Assembly: GCA_004524535.1 (NCBI GenBank)
Contig: SDNY01000082.1
Span: 1 to 16,242 of the forward strand
Direction of reading: 5' to 3'
DNA from: Promethearchaeota archaeon
Lineage (GTDB): Archaea; Asgardarchaeota; Lokiarchaeia; Sigyniarchaeales; SOKP01
Length of the DNA: 16,242 nt
The position numbers were made by a program, and so were the translations under genes. Within the stretch, counting starts at the first letter, position 1; every line of letters starts with the position of its first letter. Shown piece after piece: positions 1 to 8,011 of this stretch. The notes under the pieces are model-generated. The model worked only from the letters and a program-made list of their open reading frames with translations. It made no database searches and was not told where the DNA came from.

Positions 1-687
1 TTGGGATTTTTAATCATTGACGAAACACCTGCTGTTGGACTTACTTTTAGCAAAGATATTTTCGATCGTCATTTAGATTTATGTCAAAGATATATTAAGG
101 AGTTAATTGAACGGGATAAAAATCATCCAAGTGTTATAATGTGGAGCCTTGCGAATGAACCAGGACGAAGCAAAGGAGCTAAAGATTTTTTTCGAGCGAT
201 GTATGATACTGCGAGAAATATAGATTCAACTAGACCAATTACTTTAGTAAGCATGGTTGGAGTTTCAGAACGAGCATTTGAATTTTTAGAAGTTATATGC
301 TTAAATCGATACTATGGATGGTATACAGAACCCGGTCAAATTGATGAAGGATGTAAAATATTATCTGATGAATTGGATAAAATTAATAATAAATACCAAA
401 AGCCCTTAATACTTTCAGAATTTGGAACAGATACGCTTCCTGGATGTCATTCTGAACAACCAGAAATGTGGAGTGAAGAATATCAAGTTGAATTTATAAA
501 AAATTATTTAGAAGTACTAAAATCTAAAGATTATGTTGTAGGGGCCCATATATGGAATATGTGTGATTTTAAAACATCTCAAAGTATATTAAGAGCTAAA
601 GGACTGAACCATAAAGGCGTATTTACACGAGATAGAAAACCAAAAATGGCAGCACATTTCCTTCGCAAACTTTGGTATAAAACTTAG
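1..687 (+). CDS. uidA: Glycoside hydrolase family 2, beta-glucuronidase-like; C-terminal TIM-barrel part (5'-truncated by the window edge)
   Basis: NHPSVIMWSLANEP (acid/base Glu), LNRYYGWY, LSEFG (nucleophile Glu), WNMCDF and the GUS-type NxKG motif NHKGVFTRDRKPK. The TTG at position 1 is a window-edge artefact, not the real start. Confidence 0.9.
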   Translation: MGFLIIDETPAVGLTFSKDIFDRHLDLCQRYIKELIERDKNHPSVIMWSLANEPGRSKGAKDFFRAMYDTARNIDSTRPITLVSMVGVSERAFEFLEVICLNRYYGWYTEPGQIDEGCKILSDELDKINNKYQKPLILSEFGTDTLPGCHSEQPEMWSEEYQVEFIKNYLEVLKSKDYVVGAHIWNMCDFKTSQSILRAKGLNHKGVFTRDRKPKMAAHFLRKLWYKT

Positions 688-830: not shown

Positions 831-900
831 AATGAAAAATATAAAACAATGAAAAATATAAAACAATGAAAAATAAAAACGAAGAATATAAAAGAATGAA
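831..900 (+). repeat. 17-bp tandem repeat AATGAAAAATATAAAAC across the MIPS start region
   Basis: Exact copies at 831-847 and 848-864, a 16-bp copy with one deletion at 865-880, and a degenerate copy (GAAGAATATAAAAG-AATGAA) at 881-900. Confidence 0.85.
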
Positions 901-1999
901 GGATACTAACGAGAAAGGCATAAGCGTATGTTTAATCGGCATCGGTGATGTTGCTTCTGCTTTAGTACAAGGGATTGAAAATTATAAAAAGAATCCAGAG
1001 AAAATTATTGGGATTTTACCTGAAATCACCCAATATAAGATAGAAGATATTAATTTTGTGTTAGGAATTGAAGTCAATGCAAATAAAGTTGGTAAAGATT
1101 TAAGTGAAGCCATATTTGCAGAGCCAAATTGTAATATGGAATTATTTAGACCTAATTTTTTAGATGCGCCAGTGGTTAAGGGTCCAATCTTGGACGGGTT
1201 ACAAAGCAACATAAAAAACATCGTTCCTGTGGATGATAATCAAAAAGAAGTTGATATTGTTAAAGAAATGAAAGATCGTAATATAGATGTAGCAGTAATT
1301 CTTCTGCCAACAGGCGCTCACAAAGCTGTAAAATTCTATGCGATGGCAGCTCTTGAAGCAGGAGCTTGTGTGATCTGTGGAATGCCATCACATGTTGCGA
1401 AAGATCCAGATTTAGTAAGGAAAGCTGAAGAATCACGGCTTTCATTAATAGGAGATGATGTGAAATCACAAATTGGAGCAACTATCATTCATAGATCTTT
1501 AGCTAACCTTTTTCCAATGCGTGGTGCAATATTGGATCGTACTATTCAATTAGATTGGGGCGGATGCAGTGACTTTTGCAATTTGTTAACTCCTAAACCT
1601 AATGGAGAATTGTTTTATGAAGAAGGAAAGCGCCAATCCAAAACAGCCTCTGTCGTTGCTAAACTAAAAAACAAAGATACCGTTGAATGTCAAATATCTG
1701 CTGTAGATTATATCCCATTCTTAAAGAACCAAAAAGAGGCATATATGAGATTGGAAGGACGTATTTTTGGAGGTGCTCCTGTTAGAGTGGATATTACTAT
1801 GTTTGTTGAAGATGGGAATAATTCAGCGGGAATTATTGCGGATTGTATTCGAATATCAAAAATAGCTAAAGATCGACATGTCGGGGGTGTATTACATACA
1901 GCATGTTCATTTTTCATGAAATACCCACCAAAGCAACTCGATGATTTTCGGGCGAAACGACGCCTAATAAGATTTATACAAGGAAAAAGAACGAGATAA
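866..1999 (+). CDS. ino1: myo-inositol-1(3)-phosphate synthase (MIPS/IPS), prokaryotic/archaeal type, divergent
   Basis: Rossmann motif LIGIGDVASALVQG, NKVGKDLSEAIFAEPN, GPILDG, IGDDVKSQIGATIIHR, AYMRLEGRIFGGAP, NSAGIIAD and FFMKYPP all match the INO1 family. The true start may be ATG 866 or in-frame ATG 896. Confidence 0.92.
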   Translation: MKNKNEEYKRMKDTNEKGISVCLIGIGDVASALVQGIENYKKNPEKIIGILPEITQYKIEDINFVLGIEVNANKVGKDLSEAIFAEPNCNMELFRPNFLDAPVVKGPILDGLQSNIKNIVPVDDNQKEVDIVKEMKDRNIDVAVILLPTGAHKAVKFYAMAALEAGACVICGMPSHVAKDPDLVRKAEESRLSLIGDDVKSQIGATIIHRSLANLFPMRGAILDRTIQLDWGGCSDFCNLLTPKPNGELFYEEGKRQSKTASVVAKLKNKDTVECQISAVDYIPFLKNQKEAYMRLEGRIFGGAPVRVDITMFVEDGNNSAGIIADCIRISKIAKDRHVGGVLHTACSFFMKYPPKQLDDFRAKRRLIRFIQGKRTR

Positions 2000-2038: not shown

Positions 2039-2956
2039 TTATGAATTATATGTTTTTACTTTCATTCTCATAGGAATTTTGGTAAGGCTTAGTCTTGCTA
2101 AACAGAATCTATATATATATTCGGAAATCATGCTCACTGATTCCGGAATATTACTAAAACTAGGAAAATCATTAATATCAACGATATAAGGAATACCATC
2201 CTTTAAAACATAATCTACACCAAAAATCGACATTCCAAATTTTCTTCCTGTTCTTAAAATTTGTCTTTTAAATTCTTTATCAATAGGAACTCTAATATGT
2301 ACTAATTTTTTAGATGAACGCTTACGTTGCTGTATAAGATTTTGAGAGGTAATCGTTTGTACATAGCGATCAATTATATACACTTTATACACGTTTTCAT
2401 ATTTTCCTAAATATTCTTGGAAAAATAAACAATTATTCTGAATATCGTAATGTCTAATTAAATTTAGCAAATCGTCAGGATTTCTTGCGACACCAATAAT
2501 CCGATCATATTTTGATAAGTTTCTTATATTATGCGTATCTAACTTAATAATTAAAGGGATTCCTTTAGAAACTGCTTCATATGCAGTGTTTATCGAATAA
2601 AAAGATTGAGGAATCTTCAATTTTTTACATTTTTGTTCCACTAATTTAAATGACTCTTTACGACTTTCGCAAGTTTTAACAGATCTTAGACTATTTAAAC
2701 GTGGAATATTGGCTGCGTATGAATTTAACGCATCATAAATCTTTTGATTCGTTTCCTCTGAATATAATTTAACAATTAAGAATGAAATTTGGTACTTTTT
2801 CAACTTTTTTTTAAAATATTTCACAGAAAAAGAAGAACCATTTTTTAAGAGATTAACAAACTTGATTCCATAATTAATCTTAGAAAATCTCTTGATCTCG
2901 TCAAATATATCAAGATCCCGATTGCAAATTGAACCAACAATGATTTTTTTTGGCAT
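2039..2956 (-). CDS. ATP-grasp protein, ITPK1-like inositol phosphate kinase (copy A)
   Basis: Colinear ITPK1-type motifs: LIVKL, PLIIKL, FFQEYL...VYKVYII, and GMSIFGVDYV...YIVDINDFPSF (ITPK1 consensus GxxLFGxD...IDINxFPGY). It has DxN rather than the ExN of RimK/LysX ligases. Confidence 0.8.
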   Translation of the reverse strand: MPKKIIVGSICNRDLDIFDEIKRFSKINYGIKFVNLLKNGSSFSVKYFKKKLKKYQISFLIVKLYSEETNQKIYDALNSYAANIPRLNSLRSVKTCESRKESFKLVEQKCKKLKIPQSFYSINTAYEAVSKGIPLIIKLDTHNIRNLSKYDRIIGVARNPDDLLNLIRHYDIQNNCLFFQEYLGKYENVYKVYIIDRYVQTITSQNLIQQRKRSSKKLVHIRVPIDKEFKRQILRTGRKFGMSIFGVDYVLKDGIPYIVDINDFPSFSNIPESVSMISEYIYRFCLARLSLTKIPMRMKVKTYNS

Positions 2957-3168
2957 AAAAAAATCTCATTAGTTTGTCTAAATATAGTTATTAAGTTATA
3001 TAAATGTATTTGTTATTTATATAGTAGATTACACCATTGTTATGTAAAATTATAAATATAAAATGAAAATATTGTAAAAAGAGAAGTAGATAAATTTATA
3101 TAAATCAAATAAAACGCTATTATTAAATATAATTGACTTATAAACAATTTAAGAGCTAAAATAAAAAA
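2957..3168. promoter_or_regulatory. Divergent promoter region between the ATP-grasp genes, with palindromic TATA-like boxes
   Basis: 212-bp AT-rich intergenic region. TTATATAA at 2996-3003 lies about 40 nt upstream of the minus-strand ATG, and a perfect palindrome ATTTATATAAAT sits at 3094-3105. The very AT-rich background lowers specificity. Confidence 0.45.
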
Positions 3169-3987
3169 ATGAAAAATATTGGACTTATAATAGATCGTTT
3201 TCATTTAGAAAATAAAGTAGCTGAATTTTTAAAAATCTTAAAAAAAAAAGCCAAAGTTTCGATTTATGTGGAAGAGTCATATTTATTGAATAAAGATAAT
3301 CTGAATTTTGATGTGGATCTATTTTTTGTTAAAGGTAAAGGAAAATTAATGGTTGCTATGGCGAGAATGATTGAAAATGAAACTTCAATACCACTGATAA
3401 ATTCTTATAAGGGAATTTGGTTATCTATTAATAGATTTATGAATAGCCTTATATTAAAAAAGGGTGGTATTAGGGTTCCTGATTTTTCTTTAAATCCTTC
3501 AAATTGTAAATCTCCTTTTCCAAATTATATTATGAAAAATATAATTGATCAGAAAACATATTCTTTCAAACCAAATATTTTAAGGGAAGATGGATGTTTA
3601 AAAATAAATGATGAAAGAGCAATTGAGGAATGTAATGGAATAAATGAGAAATATCAATATTTTTACTATCAGAAATTTATTAAAAGTAAATGGGAATACA
3701 AAGTTTATGGTTTTGGAGACAATCTATATTTTTACAAACAAATACCAGTATTAGTTAATCCAAACAAAATGGAAACTAGAAGAGAAATTGAGGAGATTAC
3801 AGAATTAAAAGAAATTGTTTTAAAAGCAATGAAACTTCTGGACCTAAAGGTAGCATCATTAGATTTTCTTAAGTCTAATGAGGATCAATATTATTTGACA
3901 GATATAAATTCGACACCTAATTTTAATTATATTAAGGATGGCCCAAAAATTATGGCAGACTTTTTAATTGAACAAACAAGAAATTAA
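3169..3987 (+). CDS. ATP-grasp protein, ITPK1/RimK-like (copy B)
   Basis: IPLINS, INRF, IRVPDF, YYQKFI...EYKVYGFG, and LKVASLDFL...YYLTDINSTPNF. The YKVY and DIN motifs are ITPK1-type. Confidence 0.7.
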   Translation: MKNIGLIIDRFHLENKVAEFLKILKKKAKVSIYVEESYLLNKDNLNFDVDLFFVKGKGKLMVAMARMIENETSIPLINSYKGIWLSINRFMNSLILKKGGIRVPDFSLNPSNCKSPFPNYIMKNIIDQKTYSFKPNILREDGCLKINDERAIEECNGINEKYQYFYYQKFIKSKWEYKVYGFGDNLYFYKQIPVLVNPNKMETRREIEEITELKEIVLKAMKLLDLKVASLDFLKSNEDQYYLTDINSTPNFNYIKDGPKIMADFLIEQTRN

Positions 3988-3998
3988 ATAATTTTAAA

Positions 3999-4790
3999 AT
4001 GCATTTAAGAATTGGAATTCTATCAAAAAGAAAAGGATATTTTACGGGTAAACTAAAGAACTTTTTTGAAAGTAATGGACATAATACTATAATTTATACA
4101 AAAGAAAATTTATGTATTAACGAATCAATGCTTGAAAACGATTTATATATTTTAAAGTCTAAGCATCAGATACCTTTTGTTTATGCGGGCTTTTACGCAG
4201 AATCACATGGCATTCCAGTTATTCCAAATACTGACATTAGCCAAAAACATAAAGATAGATTTGAAGCTTATCTATTAATAAAAAATGCGGGTTTGCTATA
4301 TCCAAAATGGTATTATGGAACTCCACAAACAATTAAAAAAAATCTTAAGGATAAAGATTTTCCATTAATTTTAAAACCTGTTTCAGGTTCGGGGAGTAGA
4401 GGTGTTAAAGTCATTTATAATTTTGGTGATATTGAAAATTTAAATCAGGATATTCTCTATTTGGAGAAATATATTGAAGGAACACATTATACTGTTTACT
4501 TTATTGGTGATAAAATATGTGCAATGGAGAAAATTCCCTTAAAAAATGAGCATTCTGAAATGACAAGAAGGAAGCTCTCGAAGGAAATTAAGCAAATTAT
4601 AATGACGTGGAAAAATCAATATAATCTCTTATTTGGACATCTTGATATAGTTATAGAAAAAAAAACACATAAACATTTAGTTGTTGATCCAGGTTCCTTC
4701 CCTGAATTTTCTAATTGGAAGTGTGGAGGAGATCCTGTGTCGTTAATTGGAAACTTAATTTTAGAAGAATATAAGAAGTTAAAAAACTAA
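3999..4790 (+). CDS. ATP-grasp protein, RimK/ITPK1-like with degenerate metal motif (copy C)
   Basis: GIPVIPN, HKDRF, FPLILKPVSGSGSRGV (Gly-rich ATP-grasp loop), LYLEKYI, and FGHLDIV...LVVDPGSFPEF. It starts 11 nt after copy B. Confidence 0.7.
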   Translation: MHLRIGILSKRKGYFTGKLKNFFESNGHNTIIYTKENLCINESMLENDLYILKSKHQIPFVYAGFYAESHGIPVIPNTDISQKHKDRFEAYLLIKNAGLLYPKWYYGTPQTIKKNLKDKDFPLILKPVSGSGSRGVKVIYNFGDIENLNQDILYLEKYIEGTHYTVYFIGDKICAMEKIPLKNEHSEMTRRKLSKEIKQIIMTWKNQYNLLFGHLDIVIEKKTHKHLVVDPGSFPEFSNWKCGGDPVSLIGNLILEEYKKLKN

Positions 4791-4824: not shown

Positions 4825-5817
4825 GTGGATTATCTTCAAATGGCAAGGGAAATTCAAAAGCAAGAAGAAAGTAGAATAAAACAGGTATTTGGGTCCCAAA
4901 AAATCAGATTATACAAAATCAAGCATTTTATTTTTGATTTTGGAGGGGTAATGATTGAGCAAACGTTTGTAATAAAAAATTTAATAGATATTATTGAGAG
5001 TGATTTAAAAATAACCATCCCTCGCTCTGAAAATTCATATTATAGGAAACTCTTCAGGCAAGTCGGATCAGGAGTAATCTCATCGAGAGATTTTATTACA
5101 AAGATTCTTGGTAAATACTATTATCCTATCAAAAAAGAAAAAGAAGGTGCTTTGCCTGAAAAAAAAGTAAATGTTAGTTATTATTTGGAACTCTGGTTTC
5201 AGTTATATACCAAATTTGCTCGTTTATCTGAAGATATGAGAGAGATTGTTCAAAATCTGCATGAGGCAGGATATATTGTTAGTCTAATGTCTAATACATT
5301 TGACATCCATGCCAAATCAAATGAGCTTAAGGGATTTTACGAAATATTTGACAACGTTTTTCTCTCGAACGAAATTGGATTGAGAAAGCCAGAATTAGAA
5401 AAGTACAAATATGTTTTAAAAAAATTGAAAACAAAACCAAAGTATTGTATTTTTATTGATGATAAAATGGCAAATCTTATCCCTGCTCGCCAGTTAGGAA
5501 TCCACGTAATTAAATTCGAGTCGATTCAGAAGTTTAAAGAACAATTGGGAGATTTGGGCTTAAAGGATATAAGTGATGTGTCGAGAAAAGATATTAAATT
5601 ACAATACAAAGAATATAAATTAATAAAAGAGGAATTTAGAAAAGCAAAAAAGAAATACGAGAAAATTAAAAAAGAATTTCTAAAAACGGATAAGGATACC
5701 TCTCAATTGAAAATTGATCTTCAATTAAAATATGATGATTATATGATTAAGAAAGCTGAATATAAAAAAGCAAAACTGAGTAAAAAAGAACTTGTGTCAA
5801 GAATTAAAGTTACTTAA
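4825..5817 (+). CDS. HAD-superfamily (subfamily IA, YihX/ACAD10-like) phosphatase with Lys-rich helical C-terminal extension (paralog 1)
   Basis: Motif I IFDFGGV, motif II LMSNT, motif III SNEIGLRKP, motif IV CIFIDD. GTG start at 4825, with an alternative ATG at 4840. The last ~84 aa are Lys-rich. Confidence 0.85.
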   Translation: MDYLQMAREIQKQEESRIKQVFGSQKIRLYKIKHFIFDFGGVMIEQTFVIKNLIDIIESDLKITIPRSENSYYRKLFRQVGSGVISSRDFITKILGKYYYPIKKEKEGALPEKKVNVSYYLELWFQLYTKFARLSEDMREIVQNLHEAGYIVSLMSNTFDIHAKSNELKGFYEIFDNVFLSNEIGLRKPELEKYKYVLKKLKTKPKYCIFIDDKMANLIPARQLGIHVIKFESIQKFKEQLGDLGLKDISDVSRKDIKLQYKEYKLIKEEFRKAKKKYEKIKKEFLKTDKDTSQLKIDLQLKYDDYMIKKAEYKKAKLSKKELVSRIKVT

Positions 5818-5836: not shown

Positions 5837-6817
5837 ATGAATTCTCAAGATGCTGATAAATCTTATGAGATTTTTTCATCAGAATTATTTGGACAGCAAA
5901 AAGTAAAACTATTTGAGATACAACATATAATATTTGATTTTGGGGGAGTCTTAGCTGAGAGATCGTTCATACTAAAAAATCTTCTTGATAATATTGAGAA
6001 CGATTTAGGTATTAAAATTCCTAGAAATGAGGACGTTTATTATAGAAAAATTAAACGTCAATTAAGTTCTGGACGAATTACTTCACGTGAATTCTTAGAA
6101 TTAATTATAGACAAATATTATTATCCATTTCAAAAAGTTAATGGAGCTCTACCTGCTAAGAAAGTGAATATTGATTATTATTTGGAACTATGGTTCCAAA
6201 TGCATATAAAGCTAACAAAATTATCTAAAGATATGAGGAAGATCATTAAACGGTTTCATAATGCGGGTTATACTGTGAATTTGATGTCTAACGTTTATGA
6301 TCTATATGCTAAGTCATATGAAATCAGAGGTTTTTACAATCTGTTTGATAATGTGTTTTTATCTAATGAGATTGGGGTCATAAAACCAGATATTGATAAA
6401 TATAAATATGTTTTAAACAAGTTGAGTGCTAAACCAAAGGAATGTATATTTATTGATGATAAAATCCAAAATCTCGTACCAGCAAGAACGCTCGGTATGA
6501 TTGTCGTCAATTTTAAGTCATTCAAAAAATTCACTGAGCAATTAGATTGTCTAGGTTTTAATGAAGTTTCTAAACGCTTTCGAAAAGAGATAAATCAAAA
6601 ATATCAAGAGTATAGAATGAAGAAAAAACAATATAAAAGATCTCGAAAAGCATATAAAAAAAGTCGAAGAGCTTTTCTCAATAAAAAGGGTAAGTCAGAA
6701 AAAGAATTAAAGGAATTTAAACAAAAACAAGAAGAATATCACAAATTAAAATTAGAATTTCAAAAAATAAAAGAAATTAAAAAGCACGAATTAATTGCTA
6801 AATGTGAATTAGATTAA
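5837..6817 (+). CDS. HAD-superfamily (subfamily IA) phosphatase with Lys/Arg-rich helical C-terminal extension (paralog 2)
   Basis: IFDFGGVL, LMSNV, SNEIGVIKPD, CIFIDD. It shares KYYYP..GALP.KKVN..YYLELWFQ with paralog 1, indicating tandem duplication. Confidence 0.85.
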   Translation: MNSQDADKSYEIFSSELFGQQKVKLFEIQHIIFDFGGVLAERSFILKNLLDNIENDLGIKIPRNEDVYYRKIKRQLSSGRITSREFLELIIDKYYYPFQKVNGALPAKKVNIDYYLELWFQMHIKLTKLSKDMRKIIKRFHNAGYTVNLMSNVYDLYAKSYEIRGFYNLFDNVFLSNEIGVIKPDIDKYKYVLNKLSAKPKECIFIDDKIQNLVPARTLGMIVVNFKSFKKFTEQLDCLGFNEVSKRFRKEINQKYQEYRMKKKQYKRSRKAYKKSRRAFLNKKGKSEKELKEFKQKQEEYHKLKLEFQKIKEIKKHELIAKCELD

Positions 6818-6892: not shown

Positions 6893-8011
6893 TTATTCAG
6901 TTTTTTTGCTTTGTTCTTCTTCTTGTTCTGATTCTTGTTGTTTATTATATTCCTCAACTTTTTTCATAACCGATTCTGATGGTGTTGTTGCTGGTGCTGG
7001 TATGGGCATTTTTTCGTAAATTTCAATGAATTTAACATCATTAATTTCTTCTCCCATATTGGTTTGCAAATCCATAGCAAGCCCGAATTTTAACATTATT
7101 AAATTTTGGAACAAAAATTGTTTAGGAATTATGAATTCAATTGATTTATCTTTCTTATTATAATTTGCTTTAAAATCGGCTATATTTGCCTTTGGAATTC
7201 CTTTATTTATCATAAAATACTCAATCTTGTCATTAAAATCTTCGATTTTATCGATTACTTCGATATTATAATCTAGATTTTGTCCCGCTAATGGATGATT
7301 ATAGTCAATTATAACTCTACCTTGCAAAATATTAGTTACTGTCCCCCGTTGACCATCTTTCTTAACAAAATCTTGTCCTAGCTCTGGATTCTTGCCGTCA
7401 TTTAATTTTCTAAATTTAGCAATTCCTATCCTTTCTATTTTTGCTGGATCTCTTTTGCCAAATCCCTTTGATGGCGGAATACGAACAGATTTCTTTTCAA
7501 AATAATTCATTTTTTCAATAGTATCCATAAGACCTTCATTTAAAAATCCTGGTTTTCCTACGATTACAAATTCGGGGGTATAAATATGTTCCTTCTTCTC
7601 GTCGTAGATGCCTGCTTTCTTAGCGTCTTCAACTGAAGAAACTTGAAAAATTCGGCCTTTTTGAGTTTTTCCCGTTATTTTAACTAAGATAAAATCTCCT
7701 TCTTCAACTTTTTTTCCTTCTAATAGTTTTTTCTTTTCTTCCAGCTTTTTAAGTTCTTCTTGAATTTTTTTCTCTTCATCAATATCTTCAGGGGATTCCT
7801 TAACTTCGGATTCAGTTTCATCTGATTGTTCTTCTAATAATATTTTTGCGTTATCAATATATTTCTGGGCGGATGCTTTACCAATACCTTTAATTTTTAA
7901 TAAATCATCTATATTAGCACTTGCTAACTTTTCAACAGAGTCTATTCCCGCCTCTTTAAGATTTTCCGCTTTTTTGCCCAAACCTTTTACATCTTCTAAT
8001 TTAAGATTCAT
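6893..8011 (-). CDS. Archaeal long-type FKBP peptidyl-prolyl isomerase/chaperone (SlyD-like) with N-terminal helix-hairpin-helix domain
   Basis: FKBP motifs EGDFILVKITGK, IPPSKGFGKRDP and VIIDYNHPLAGQNLDYNIEV, plus the extra C-terminal domain of long-type FKBPs. The N-terminus VKGLGKK...AGIDSVEKLA...LLKIKGIGKASAQK is a tandem HhH. Confidence 0.88.
   Translation of the reverse strand: MNLKLEDVKGLGKKAENLKEAGIDSVEKLASANIDDLLKIKGIGKASAQKYIDNAKILLEEQSDETESEVKESPEDIDEEKKIQEELKKLEEKKKLLEGKKVEEGDFILVKITGKTQKGRIFQVSSVEDAKKAGIYDEKKEHIYTPEFVIVGKPGFLNEGLMDTIEKMNYFEKKSVRIPPSKGFGKRDPAKIERIGIAKFRKLNDGKNPELGQDFVKKDGQRGTVTNILQGRVIIDYNHPLAGQNLDYNIEVIDKIEDFNDKIEYFMINKGIPKANIADFKANYNKKDKSIEFIIPKQFLFQNLIMLKFGLAMDLQTNMGEEINDVKFIEIYEKMPIPAPATTPSESVMKKVEEYNKQQESEQEEEQSKKTE

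What the first reader, a model, noticed from the sequence alone, without database searches (positions are those of the whole stretch)
2039..2956. Strongly ITPK1-like (eukaryote-type) kinase in an archaeal context
Seen: FGMSIFGVDYV...IVDINDFPSF, QEYL...VYKVYII and LIVKL parallel the ITPK1 segments GVSLFGIDII...VIDINAFPGY, QNFI...LYKVFVVG and IIHKL. Basic patches (KKKLKK, RKRSSKK) suit a polyanionic substrate. An automated pipeline would probably label it a RimK-family ligase.
Basis: partly seen in the sequence, partly recalled or inferred. Interest (0 to 1): 0.7.

Follow-up and report, generated by a model that had tools for sequence, protein, structure and literature searches.

The report
Asgard archaeal ITPK-like inositol phosphate kinase
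This gene most likely encodes an archaeal relative of the eukaryotic inositol phosphate kinase ITPK1, sitting beside the enzyme that makes inositol phosphate; genes of this kind were already described in Lokiarchaeota in 2019, so it is a new example of a known thing.

Summary
The ORF is real: 2039..2956 on the minus strand, 305 aa, pI 9.8, and every quoted motif is present.

On its own the protein is only weakly ITPK-like. Pfam PF05770 scores 20.8 bits, below the cut-off of 23. Its family is clearly ITPK-like:
- 27 of 28 orthologues hit PF05770.
- The family profile finds 10 ITPK structures before any other ATP-grasp enzyme.
- Profile-profile comparison gives E 1e-21 to canonical ITPKs, against 2.5e-8 to RimK.

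The ATP and Mg residues and two of the inositol-phosphate-contact lysines are kept.

In Asgard relatives the gene sits in a strongly conserved cluster. Myo-inositol-phosphate synthase is adjacent in 51 of 52 loci. There are also two further ATP-grasp genes, HAD phosphatase(s) and a fourth, ITPK-like paralogue.

Phylogeny agrees but is weak. The family is sister to canonical ITPKs with support of only 48/60, and the AU test does not reject a RimK grouping (p 0.138).

Desfougères et al. 2019 (PMC6900528) already described four Lokiarchaeal ITPK1 homologues flanking inositol-phosphate synthase genes. One of them partly restored IP6 synthesis in yeast.

The parts
2039..2956 (-). Target gene ('ITPKa', P0001): 305-aa ATP-grasp protein of the ITPK family, and the putative inositol phosphate kinase.
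   Evidence: ORF and translation. Pfam PF05770 20.8 bits. Family profile against PDB. hhalign E 1e-21 to canonical ITPKs. AF2 model with pLDDT 87 and an ATP-grasp fold.
866..1999 (+). Myo-inositol-1-phosphate (Ins3P) synthase. It is convergent with the target across a 39-bp gap and is the only copy found in the genome.
   Evidence: Pfam Inos-1-P_synth E 6.8e-20. NCBIfam inositol-3-phosphate synthase 282.9 bits. Single match in the own genome. Adjacent and convergent in 51 of 52 close loci that have room.
2957..3168 (.). AT-rich 212-bp divergent intergenic region between the target and the AGb-AGc-HAD genes. It is presumed to hold both promoters (inferred).
   Evidence: Sequence read only. No promoter test was made; the promoter scanner does not cover archaeal promoters and was not run.
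3169..3987 (+). 'AGb' (P0121): 272-aa ATP-grasp paralogue with no Pfam hit. It keeps the ITPK-type Lys and D-x-N and lacks the Gly-rich loop.
   Evidence: hhalign to ITPK 7.8e-10 and to RimK 6e-13. Upstream and divergent in 51 of 51 close loci with room.
3999..4790 (+). 'AGc' (P0122): 263-aa RimK-like ATP-grasp paralogue with a GSGS loop. It has D-P-G where other ATP-grasp enzymes have D/E-x-N.
   Evidence: Pfam ATP-grasp_3 33.2 bits. hhalign to RimK 3.9e-15 and to ITPK 6.7e-12. Residues. Present in 48 of 48 close loci with room.
4825..5817 (+). HAD-IA phosphatase 1 (P0273), of the YihX / soluble-epoxide-hydrolase N-terminal type, with a K/E-rich C-terminal tail of about 85 aa.
   Evidence: Pfam and NCBIfam results. 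Best PDB match is YihX glucose-1-phosphatase at 7.9e-11. Sequence. A HAD gene is present in 39 of 46 close loci with room.
5837..6817 (+). HAD-IA phosphatase 2 (P0274), a tandem duplicate of the previous gene.
   Evidence: Two HAD genes occur in only 2 of 46 close loci with room.

Best explanation
The gene encodes a divergent member of the ITPK (inositol tris/tetrakisphosphate kinase, PF05770) branch of the ATP-grasp superfamily, in an Asgard (Promethearchaeota) archaeon. Proposed mechanism, inferred from homology. ATP binds between the central and C-terminal domains. Lys138 and the Q180-E-Y-L hinge hold the nucleotide. Asp248, Asp260 and Asn262 hold Mg2+. A strongly basic pocket binds a phosphorylated inositol, and the gamma-phosphate is transferred to one of its hydroxyls. 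The pocket residues are Lys63, Lys191 and Arg152, probably with Arg13, Lys50/53/54 and His142. The substrate is most likely the Ins(3)P made by the adjacent myo-inositol-phosphate synthase, or a more phosphorylated product of the other paralogues. The gene belongs to a conserved cluster: synthase, two ITPK-like genes (this one and a fourth paralogue beyond the synthase), two further ATP-grasp genes and HAD phosphatase(s). Together these would give a lipid-independent route to inositol polyphosphates, with the phosphatase(s) trimming or recycling them. Shown here: homology, residue conservation and synteny. Inferred: substrate, product and the roles of the paralogues.
For: A1 profile against PDB: the 10 best distinct sequences are all ITPKs (AtITPK4 1.2e-6, human ITPK1 4.3e-6 ... 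Entamoeba 2.6e-3); RimK scores 1.1. 27 of 28 orthologues hit PF05770 at E<=0.01, and 2 of 28 hit RimK. hhalign against 10 canonical ITPKs: probability 99.4 %, E 1e-21, P0001 residues 56-290. With a 55-sequence family alignment: ITPK E 7.7e-20 (score 141.8) against RimK 2.5e-8 (62.9), with a RimK-ITPK baseline of 3.8e-12. Residue map: K63 = human K59, K138 = K157, K191 = K199, D248/D260/N262 = D281/D295/N297, R152 at the H167 position, and S266 at G301 (also Ser in the canonical consensus). The family is very basic: median pI 9.6, with 19 basic against 8 acidic residues conserved at >=90 %. Synteny: synthase adjacent in 51/52, AGb 51/51, AGc 48/48, HAD 39/46, fourth paralogue within 7 kb in 36/42 close loci with room; 3 of 5 distant archaeal loci keep synthase + AGb + AGc. 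The ML trees put the family beside canonical ITPKs and put RimK with AGb/AGc. Literature: four Lokiarchaeum ITPK1 homologues flank inositol-phosphate synthase genes, and LcIKC partly restored IP6 in plc1-delta yeast (PMC6900528: section 6 read whole, plus the Fig. 2 legend and passages). The ESM Atlas cluster of this protein is auto-named as an Ins(1,3,4)P3 5/6-kinase ATP-grasp domain protein; 85 % of its 282 members carry PF05770.
Against: For this protein alone PF05770 is below the gathering score (20.8 against 23), covers only residues 235-282, and there is no hit to the ITPK pre-ATP-grasp domain PF17927. Foldseek does not discriminate: ArgX 9.6e-15, potato ITPK1 1.3e-14, and Ddl, RimK and PPIP5K2 all lie within two to three orders of magnitude. 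Tree support for the family + canonical ITPK grouping is weak (SH-aLRT 81; UFBoot/SH-aLRT 48/60). An AU test does not reject the family + RimK as one clade (delta lnL 23.3, p 0.138). Human R212 aligns to Ser204. The nearby family Arg207 (>=90 % conserved) is Leu in this protein, and human H167 is Arg. The first 55 residues do not align to ITPKs. The synthase is the only copy in the genome, so it also serves other inositol uses and adjacency is not exclusive evidence. I could not establish which LcIK, if any, is the orthologue: no accessions appear in the main text and supplements are closed. No biochemical data exist for this clade.
Confidence: 0.7

Rival explanations
1. It is a RimK/LysX/MptN-type ATP-grasp ligase. 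It would form an acyl-phosphate and add an amino acid such as glutamate to a carboxylate on a protein tail, a cofactor or an inositol-derived metabolite. The ITPK resemblance would only reflect the shared fold.
For: Weak NCBIfam hits to MptN (24.6 bits) and rimK_fam (21.6 bits) span most of the protein's length. The top Foldseek hit is ArgX, at 9.6e-15. The AU test does not reject family + RimK (p 0.138). Two neighbours (AGb, AGc) score slightly better to RimK than to ITPK. Some source annotations call orthologues RimK-type.
Against: Scores are far below the NCBIfam cut-offs of 143.4 and 350, and a genuine RimK-family gene scores 247.8 bits elsewhere in the genome. hhalign to RimK (2.5e-8) is weaker than the RimK-ITPK baseline (3.8e-12) and 12 orders of magnitude weaker than to ITPK. 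The protein lacks the KPxxGSxG loop, has Lys where RimK has the D-x-R Arg, and has D-x-N where RimK has E-x-N. RimK groups with AGb/AGc and away from this family at 86/84. No carrier protein or carboxylate-supplying gene was noted in the cluster.
Confidence: 0.12
2. It is an ITPK-family phosphotransferase, but its job is not the stepwise building of InsPs from Ins(3)P. It could be an InsP6 kinase making PP-InsP, as plant ITPK1 does. It could be a reversible InsP:ADP phosphotransferase or isomerase. Or it could be a kinase for another polyanionic sugar phosphate.
For: Plant ITPK1 is described in the read passages as possibly using IP6 to make IP7, and human ITPK1 as also able to dephosphorylate position 1 (PMC6900528 passages). 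Substrate-contact residues differ from the canonical ones (R152 for H167; no aligned R212). Four paralogues in one cluster imply divided roles. No IPK (PF03770) match was found in the genome.
Against: Nothing in the genome searched would supply InsP5/InsP6 apart from these paralogues. IPPK and PPIP5K_N were not found, though those two searches had no positive control. The tight conserved adjacency to the synthase fits an early-pathway role best.
Confidence: 0.13
3. It is a catalytically inactive or regulatory ATP-grasp paralogue that only binds inositol phosphates or partners the other paralogues.
For: It is one of four paralogues in the cluster. Leu replaces the family-conserved Arg207 in this protein.
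Against: The ATP-binding Lys, the hinge Q-E-Y and the Mg ligands D248/D260/N262 are invariant in 28 of 28 orthologues. The whole subclade with Leu/Ile207 keeps all of them.
Confidence: 0.03

Closest known systems
LcIKA-LcIKD, the four ITPK1 homologues of 'Lokiarchaeum' (Desfougères et al. 2019, PNAS, PMC6900528)
   Same: They are Asgard archaeal ATP-grasp proteins homologous to ITPK1 and located beside inositol-3-phosphate synthase genes. They were proposed to phosphorylate Ins(3)P in a lipid-independent route, and LcIKC gave partial IP6 rescue in plc1-delta yeast. This genome also has four ATP-grasp paralogues around or near the synthase.
   Different: One-to-one orthology could not be established: there are no accession numbers in the main text and supplements are closed. 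By my profile comparisons only two of the four paralogues here (this one and P0123) are distinctly ITPK-like; AGb and AGc sit at or nearer the RimK baseline. The passages I read do not mention the HAD phosphatase genes.
Eukaryotic ITPK1 (human 2q7d/2qb5/2odt; maize 7tn5; potato 8oxe; Entamoeba 1z2n)
   Same: It shares the ATP-grasp fold and the ATP-binding Lys. It shares the K59- and K199-equivalent substrate lysines and the D...D-x-N Mg site. It also shares the C-terminal motif (FG.D ... .D.N.FP) and the absence of a Gly-rich loop.
   Different: Only 16 % of aligned columns are identical at profile level. The N-terminal pre-ATP-grasp domain is not recognisably homologous (no PF17927 hit). There is Arg in place of H167, no aligned R212, and a shorter insert between the K199 and D281 equivalents. 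The protein is much more basic (pI 9.8 against a median of 6.4 for the canonical set).
RimK / LysX / ArgX / MptN alpha-L-glutamate-type ligases
   Same: Same superfamily, similar size and three-domain architecture, with indistinguishable Foldseek scores. This is the usual automated label for orthologues.
   Different: It fails the NCBIfam cut-offs by a wide margin. It lacks the Gly-rich loop, the D-x-R Arg and the E-x-N motif. Its profile similarity is weaker than the general RimK-ITPK baseline.
Plant ITPK4 (AtITPK4, 7pup), a HAD-like domain fused to an ITPK kinase domain
   Different: Here HAD and kinase are separate genes. The window's HAD does not hit 7pup by sequence and aligns to P0214's HAD only weakly (E 4e-4 over 60 residues). 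No evolutionary link is shown.

Membership tests
ITPK (Ins134_P3_kin, PF05770) | Score at or above the Pfam gathering threshold for PF05770 | tested here: inconclusive
   This protein scores 20.8 bits against a cut-off of 23. 27 of 28 orthologues match at E<=0.01, best 1.5e-8. Many orthologues carry a precomputed PF05770 hit.
ITPK (Ins134_P3_kin, PF05770) | Closer by profile to canonical ITPKs than to other ATP-grasp families | tested here: met
   PDB hmmsearch: 10 ITPK sequences come first, and RimK scores E 1.1. hhalign E 1e-21 / 7.7e-20 to ITPK against 2.5e-8 to RimK.
ITPK (Ins134_P3_kin, PF05770) | Three-domain ATP-grasp fold | tested here: met
   AF2 model with pLDDT 87 and pTM 0.83. 376 PDB chains at E<=0.001 in the Foldseek search; every chain listed is an ATP-grasp enzyme.
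ITPK (Ins134_P3_kin, PF05770) | ITPK pre-ATP-grasp N-terminal domain (PF17927) | tested here: not met
   No hit at E<=10. hhalign alignments start at residue 56 or 72.
ITPK (Ins134_P3_kin, PF05770) | Nucleotide/Mg residues: Lys (human K157), hinge Gln (Q188), and D281, D295, N297 | tested here: met
   K138, Q180, D248, D260 and N262 are invariant in 28 of 28 orthologues. They were mapped through.
ITPK (Ins134_P3_kin, PF05770) | Inositol-phosphate contact residues named in PMC6900528 (proximal H167, K199, R212; distal K18, K59, H162, G301) | tested here: inconclusive
   K199 maps to K191 and K59 to K63, both kept. H167 maps to R152 and H162 to N146, with invariant H142 four residues earlier. 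R212 maps to S204; the family's R207 is Leu here. G301 maps to S266, which is also Ser in the canonical consensus. K18 is not aligned.
ITPK (Ins134_P3_kin, PF05770) | Phylogenetic placement with ITPKs | tested here: inconclusive
   Sister to canonical ITPKs in both ML trees, but with SH-aLRT 81 and 48/60. The AU test does not reject a RimK grouping, p 0.138.
ITPK (Ins134_P3_kin, PF05770) | ATP-dependent phosphorylation of inositol phosphates | not testable with these tools
   Needs an enzyme assay. The only indirect support is the LcIKC yeast rescue in PMC6900528.
RimK family (TIGR00768 / PF08443) | Score at or above the NCBIfam cut-off | tested here: not met
   rimK_fam 21.6 bits against 143.4, and MptN 24.6 against 350. 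No Pfam RimK hit for this protein. The genome's own true RimK-family gene scores 247.8 bits.
RimK family (TIGR00768 / PF08443) | Gly-rich loop (KPxxGSxG), Arg in the D-x-R strand, and the E-x-N Mg site | tested here: not met
   hhalign against 14 RimK-family sequences shows a gap at the loop, K191 opposite the Arg, and D260-I-N262 opposite E-V-N. These defining motifs are read from that alignment and from the conservation table.

The most novel reading that the evidence does not exclude
The conserved cluster (Ins3P synthase, four diverged ATP-grasp paralogues and HAD phosphatase) is a self-contained prokaryotic pathway to highly phosphorylated inositols or pyrophosphates. Each paralogue would have its own positional specificity, replacing the eukaryotic IPMK and IPPK, neither of which was detected in this genome. 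In this reading the target family, rather than the Pfam-positive paralogue, is the closest prokaryotic sister of eukaryotic ITPK1. The RimK-like pair (AGb/AGc) would be either new kinds of inositol phosphate kinase or ligases that make an undescribed inositol-phosphate conjugate. PF05770 matched in one family-level lineage and a single genome of a second family, out of the 29 families sampled in the phylum. The same module occurs in a Thermoplasmatota-labelled MAG. That distribution would make the simple 'inherited from the Asgard ancestor' story for ITPK1 worth re-examining.
Probability: 0.25. Interest if true: 0.75.

Novelty: new member of a known kind. Interest (0 to 1): 0.4.

Why it matters
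Inositol polyphosphates were long taken as a eukaryotic hallmark. ITPK1 homologues in Lokiarchaeota are the published argument that the lipid-independent route predates eukaryotes. This window adds a well-resolved example and three points that could sharpen that argument.

- **Cluster conservation.** The gene order around the synthase is highly conserved and includes two more ATP-grasp genes and a phosphatase. That suggests a multi-enzyme pathway that could be reconstituted.
- **Closest relative.** By profile comparison, the Pfam-subthreshold family studied here is at least as close to canonical ITPKs as the Pfam-positive paralogue.
- **Narrow distribution.** In an even sample of 201 genomes of the phylum, ITPK-like genes are almost confined to one family-level lineage. 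This bears on whether eukaryotic ITPK1 was inherited vertically.

None of this changes the basic, already published conclusion.

Tried and rejected
**Fold search.** Foldseek against PDB could not separate ITPK from ArgX/LysX, Ddl, RimK or PPIP5K2; all fell between about 1e-14 and 1e-11. It supports only 'ATP-grasp fold'. The two VIA-align libraries, which might have ranked them, were not on the machine.

**Phylogeny as a decisive test.** Two ML trees and one AU test gave the expected topology without strong support. I do not use them as proof. The rows were chosen by me:
- 7-8 sequences per Asgard paralogue family were drawn at random from 39-55.
- The first tree used 37 of the 67 full-length representatives.
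- The second tree used 12 of those 37, dropping long-branch rows.
- The 'canonical ITPK' rows are unnamed representatives. I labelled them from Pfam scores and PDB similarity, not from taxonomy.

**HAD link to plant ITPK4.** The window's HAD protein does not hit 7pup. It aligns only weakly to the HAD part of the fusion protein P0214. I keep this only as a remote possibility.

**Expression.** No RNA holder was listed for window:866-6817. This says nothing about expression.

**Orthology to named LcIK proteins.** No accession numbers or locus tags appear in the main text of PMC6900528, and supplements are closed. The SI (Fig. S1, S2 and the sequence list) may settle which paralogue was assayed.

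**TTL hits.** 10 of 28 orthologues hit the tubulin-tyrosine ligase family at E<=0.01. I treated these as generic ATP-grasp similarity.

**Own-genome family searches.**
- IPPK (PF06090), SPX (PF03105) and PPIP5K_N (PF18086) found nothing, but had no positive control. They do not show absence.
- IPK (PF03770) found nothing, with one control genome ringing.

**Literature.**
- PMC7618535 was listed for 'archaea', but the find returned no occurrence in its main text.
- Novelty statements rest on three full-text searches: ITPK1 + archaea gave 24 papers, of which 15 were listed. Asgard + 'inositol phosphate' + ATP-grasp gave 1 paper. Lokiarchae + ITPK gave 4 papers.
- I read section 6 of PMC6900528 whole, plus passages and the Fig. 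2 legend.
- I read passages only from PMC8024741, from bioRxiv 10.64898/2026.05.08.723234 and from PMC7614388.
- All other papers were seen as search listings only.
Full report
**Observation.** The window is one whole contig (C194) of a 3.66-Mb assembly in 198 contigs, 99 % complete. GC content is about 23-36 %. An ORF runs 2039..2956 on the minus strand and encodes 305 aa. The protein is very basic, with pI 9.8 and 55 K+R against 27 D+E.

The context is archaeal. Neighbours include a proteasome subunit, an FKBP26-type protein with a helix-hairpin-helix domain, a radical SAM protein and an ABC transporter. The nearest relatives that carry names bear Asgard archaeal labels: Promethearchaeota, or Lokiarchaeota, Thor-, Hod- and Hermodarchaeota.

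**Single-sequence evidence is weak.**
- Pfam gives Ins134_P3_kin (PF05770) at E 3.1e-4 and 20.8 bits, below the gathering score of 23. The match covers only residues 235-282. ATP-grasp_3 scores 17.2 bits.
- NCBIfam gives MptN at 24.6 bits (cut-off 350) and rimK_fam at 21.6 bits (cut-off 143.4).
- phmmer against PDB sequences lists 8 sequences at E<=10. Five are ITPKs (AtITPK4 0.022; human ITPK1 about 0.08). Then come D-Ala-D-Ala ligase (0.16) and two RimK chains (0.4, 1.5).

'Strongly ITPK1-like' is therefore an overstatement for the sequence on its own.

**Family-level evidence is clear.** The protein has 405 relatives at E<=1e-3 among 1335 candidates; the best 120 are listed, at 53-90 % identity. 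I aligned 28 of them, picked by hand to span the identity range, as alignment A1. Mean column identity is 62 %, with 39 invariant positions.
- 27 of the 28 hit PF05770 at E<=0.01, 2 of 28 hit RimK and 10 of 28 hit TTL.
- The A1 profile against PDB finds 14 sequences at E<=10. The first 10 are all ITPKs: AtITPK4 1.2e-6, four human ITPK1 constructs 4.3e-6 to 6e-6, three maize ITPK1 constructs and potato ITPK1 at 2.1e-5 to 1.9e-4, and Entamoeba 2.6e-3. Ddl follows at 0.022 and RimK at 1.1.
- An exhaustive HMMER search of 1.84 billion cluster representatives finds only 495 at E<=1e-3 and 16 at E<=1e-30.
- I scanned 71 proteins: the 67 listed representatives of at least 250 aa plus this genome's four paralogues. 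Of these, 62 hit PF05770, 39 hit RimK and 7 hit the ITPK N-domain.
- From these I took 10 canonical ITPKs (alignment A3). One of them, P0190, scores PF05770 165.5 bits plus the N-domain, and matches human ITPK1 2q7d at E 1.3e-80.
- hhalign of A1 against A3 gives probability 99.4 %, E 1e-21 and 226 aligned columns, covering P0001 residues 56-290.

**Control against the rival family.** The same genome has a genuine RimK-family gene elsewhere (C103, 247.8 bits). I built alignments of 14 RimK-family sequences from relatives and of each paralogue family from the related loci. hhalign then gave the following.

| Family | Against canonical ITPK (E / score) | Against RimK (E / score) |
|---|---|---|
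| Target family | 7.7e-20 / 141.8 | 2.5e-8 / 62.9 |
| Fourth paralogue (P0123 family) | 5.4e-18 / 128.2 | 5.3e-12 / 86.5 |
| AGb | 7.8e-10 / 73.2 | 6e-13 / 92.1 |
| AGc | 6.7e-12 / 87.1 | 3.9e-15 / 106.3 |
| RimK (baseline) | 3.8e-12 / 89.2 | not applicable |

The target family and P0123 stand well above the baseline toward ITPK. AGb and AGc do not.

**Residues.** I chained two alignments: P0190 to human ITPK1 and A1 to A3. Chain index equals native number + 11. This offset reproduces the residues R212 and G301 named in the paper. The map, checked against the sequence, is below.

| P0001 | Human ITPK1 | Note |
|---|---|---|
| K63 | K59 | kept |
| K138 | K157 | kept |
| Q180 | Q188 | kept |
| K191 | K199 | kept |
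| D248 / D260 / N262 | D281 / D295 / N297 | kept |
| R152 | H167 | His replaced by Arg |
| N146 | H162 | invariant H142 lies four residues earlier |
| S204 | R212 | not conserved |
| S266 | G301 | the canonical consensus also has Ser |

- The family conserves Arg207 at >=90 % three residues after the R212 position. In this protein and its closest subclade that position is Leu or Ile.
- Against RimK, the family lacks the KPxxGSxG loop. It has Lys opposite the D-x-R arginine and D-x-N opposite E-x-N.
- The family has a median pI of 9.6, with 19 basic and 8 acidic residues conserved at >=90 %. RimK relatives have a median pI of 5.7 and the canonical ITPK set 6.4.
- The second patch (211-217) lies in the only long internal low-confidence loop of the model, residues 207-217 with pLDDT below 50.

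**Structure.** The AF2 model built on A1 has pLDDT 87 and pTM 0.83. Foldseek finds ATP-grasp enzymes of several families with near-equal scores. The fold is confirmed but the family is not resolved by this method.

**Phylogeny.**
- A 90-row quick ML tree puts the target clade sister to the 10 canonical ITPKs with SH-aLRT 81. The clade has 17 rows, including 9 more distant representatives, with support 100. RimK joins AGb + AGc with support 86.
- A careful 65-row tree keeps this topology. The split of {canonical ITPK + target clade} from the rest has only 48/60. {AGc, AGb, RimK} has 86/84.
- An AU test of target clade + RimK held together costs 23.3 lnL units and is not rejected, p 0.138.

The tree alone does not prove the opposite.

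**Genomic context.** The gene is convergent with the genome's only detected myo-inositol-phosphate synthase (866..1999), across a 39-bp gap. It diverges, across a 212-bp AT-rich spacer, from AGb (3169..3987), AGc (3999..4790) and two tandem HAD-IA phosphatases (4825..5817, 5837..6817). The best PDB match of the first of these is the glucose-1-phosphatase YihX, followed by the phosphatase domain of soluble epoxide hydrolase.

Of these, 522 were confirmed and the best 80 loci were kept. By tblastn of the window's proteins the 80 loci split as follows.
- **57 close loci (>=45 % identity).** Counting only loci with enough flanking DNA: the synthase is adjacent and convergent in 51 of 52. AGb is present in 51 of 51, AGc in 48 of 48 and a HAD gene in 39 of 46 (two HAD genes in 2 of 46). 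A P0123-type paralogue lies within 7 kb beyond the synthase in 36 of 42.
- **5 distant archaeal loci.** Three of them (two 'uncultured archaeon' MAGs and one Thermoplasmatota-labelled MAG) keep synthase + AGc + AGb + target.
- **18 far loci (bacterial, 21-27 % identity).** None of these keeps any of it.

In this assembly the fourth paralogue is on contig C4 (647..1543). It scores PF05770 at 51.8-53.8 bits.

**Distribution.** I searched an even sample of 201 genomes of the phylum.
- The A1 profile matches at E<=1e-20 in 26, all in the window's own family-level group (25 of 40, plus the window's genome), in 3 of 59 genera.
- PF05770 at E<=1e-5 matches in 37 of 201: 35 of 40 in that family, plus the window's own genome, and 1 of 3 in a second family. 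It was not found in the genomes searched from the other 27 families.

Elsewhere the genome has one IMPase-family gene. IPK, IPPK, PPIP5K_N and SPX were not found; three of those four searches had no positive control.

**Comparison with what is known.** Desfougères et al. 2019 (PMC6900528; section 6 read whole, plus the Fig. 2 legend and passages) reported four ITPK1 homologues (LcIKA-D) in 'Lokiarchaeum'. According to the paper:
- Two pairs of them flank two inositol-phosphate synthase genes.
- The ATP and proximal substrate residues are conserved.
- There are extra basic residues in the modelled pocket.
- LcIKC partly restores IP6 in plc1-delta yeast.

Later papers repeat the point. These are PMC8024741 and a 2026 bioRxiv preprint that places Asgard sequences sister to the eukaryotic ITPK1 clade; I read passages only. 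The ESM Atlas cluster holding this protein is already auto-named as an Ins(1,3,4)P3 5/6-kinase domain protein. The finding is therefore a correct recognition of a published kind.

Three things go beyond the passages I could read, though the closed supplement may cover them:
- the size and conservation of the cluster, including the two RimK-like ATP-grasp genes and the HAD phosphatase(s);
- the observation that the Pfam-subthreshold family is at least as ITPK-like as the Pfam-positive paralogue;
- the narrow distribution within the phylum.

**Verdict.** Observation confirmed and interpretation supported. The most likely function is an ATP-grasp inositol phosphate kinase acting on synthase-derived Ins(3)P or its phosphorylated products (confidence about 0.7). 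The RimK-type ligase reading is unlikely (about 0.12). This is a new member of a known kind, of moderate interest.

Noticed in passing
window 3999-4790 (+), AGc / P0122: This RimK-like ATP-grasp paralogue keeps the Gly-rich GSGS loop. It has D230-P-G232 where ATP-grasp enzymes have D/E-x-N, so the Mg-binding Asn is missing, and Thr where ITPKs have Lys and RimK has Arg. This pattern is conserved at >=90 % in 50 orthologues. Its chemistry may be atypical.
   Followed up: partly
window 3169-3987 (+), AGb / P0121: This ATP-grasp protein has no Pfam hit at E<=0.001, yet it is conserved next to the target in 51 of 51 close loci with room. It shares the ITPK-type Lys and D-x-N and lacks the Gly-rich loop, but by profile it is slightly nearer RimK.
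   Followed up: partly
window 4825-5817 and 5837-6817 (+): These are tandem duplicated HAD-IA phosphatases with motif I reading D-F-G (the second Asp replaced by Gly). Each has a lysine/glutamate-rich C-terminal tail of about 85 residues with no family match. Most relatives have a single copy; two copies occur in 2 of 46 loci.
   Followed up: partly
G000 contig C4: 647-1543 (+) = L001:647-1540, P0123: This is the fourth ATP-grasp paralogue and the only one above the PF05770 cut-off (51.8-53.8 bits). It keeps the Arg that matches human R212. In relatives it lies 0.2-7 kb beyond the synthase, so contigs C194 and C4 are probably neighbours in the genome.
   Followed up: partly
window 2039-2956 (-), residue 207: Arg207 is conserved in >=90 % of 55 family members, but it is Leu in this protein and Leu or Ile in its nearest subclade, which has extra basic residues at 209-213 instead.
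   Followed up: no
L044 (DATKTW010000070.1): This contig is labelled 'Candidatus Nanopelagicaceae bacterium', yet it carries the whole Asgard-type stretch in the same order: proteasome, ThuA-like, radical SAM, FKBP, AGc, AGb, target and synthase. It looks like a mis-binned archaeal contig.
   Followed up: no
proteins P0243 and P0214 (representatives): P0243 (540 aa) fuses an ATP-grasp domain of this broad group to an inositol monophosphatase family domain (177 bits). P0214 (510 aa) fuses an intact HAD_2 domain to an ITPK domain. Both are fusion hints linking these ATP-grasp enzymes to inositol phosphate metabolism and to HAD phosphatases.
   Followed up: partly
The genome search sample of the phylum: ITPK-like genes (PF05770) were found in 35 of 40 genomes of one family-level lineage and 1 of 3 of a second. 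They were found in none of the genomes searched from 27 other families of the phylum. This is a patchy distribution for a gene said to be inherited by eukaryotes from Asgard archaea.
   Followed up: partly
L008:9228-11431 and L020:2293-4490: Two related loci carry two extra, divergent synthase-like genes (32-39 % identity to the window's synthase) directly after the conserved one.
   Followed up: no
window 1-687 (+): A glycoside hydrolase family 2 TIM-barrel gene is cut off by the contig start. The same gene follows the synthase in the closest relatives (L005-L007).
   Followed up: no
window 6893-8011 (-): A 372-aa protein combines an N-terminal helix-hairpin-helix domain with an FKBP-type isomerase domain and the FKBP26 IF domain. 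It is conserved next to the cluster in most relatives.
   Followed up: no
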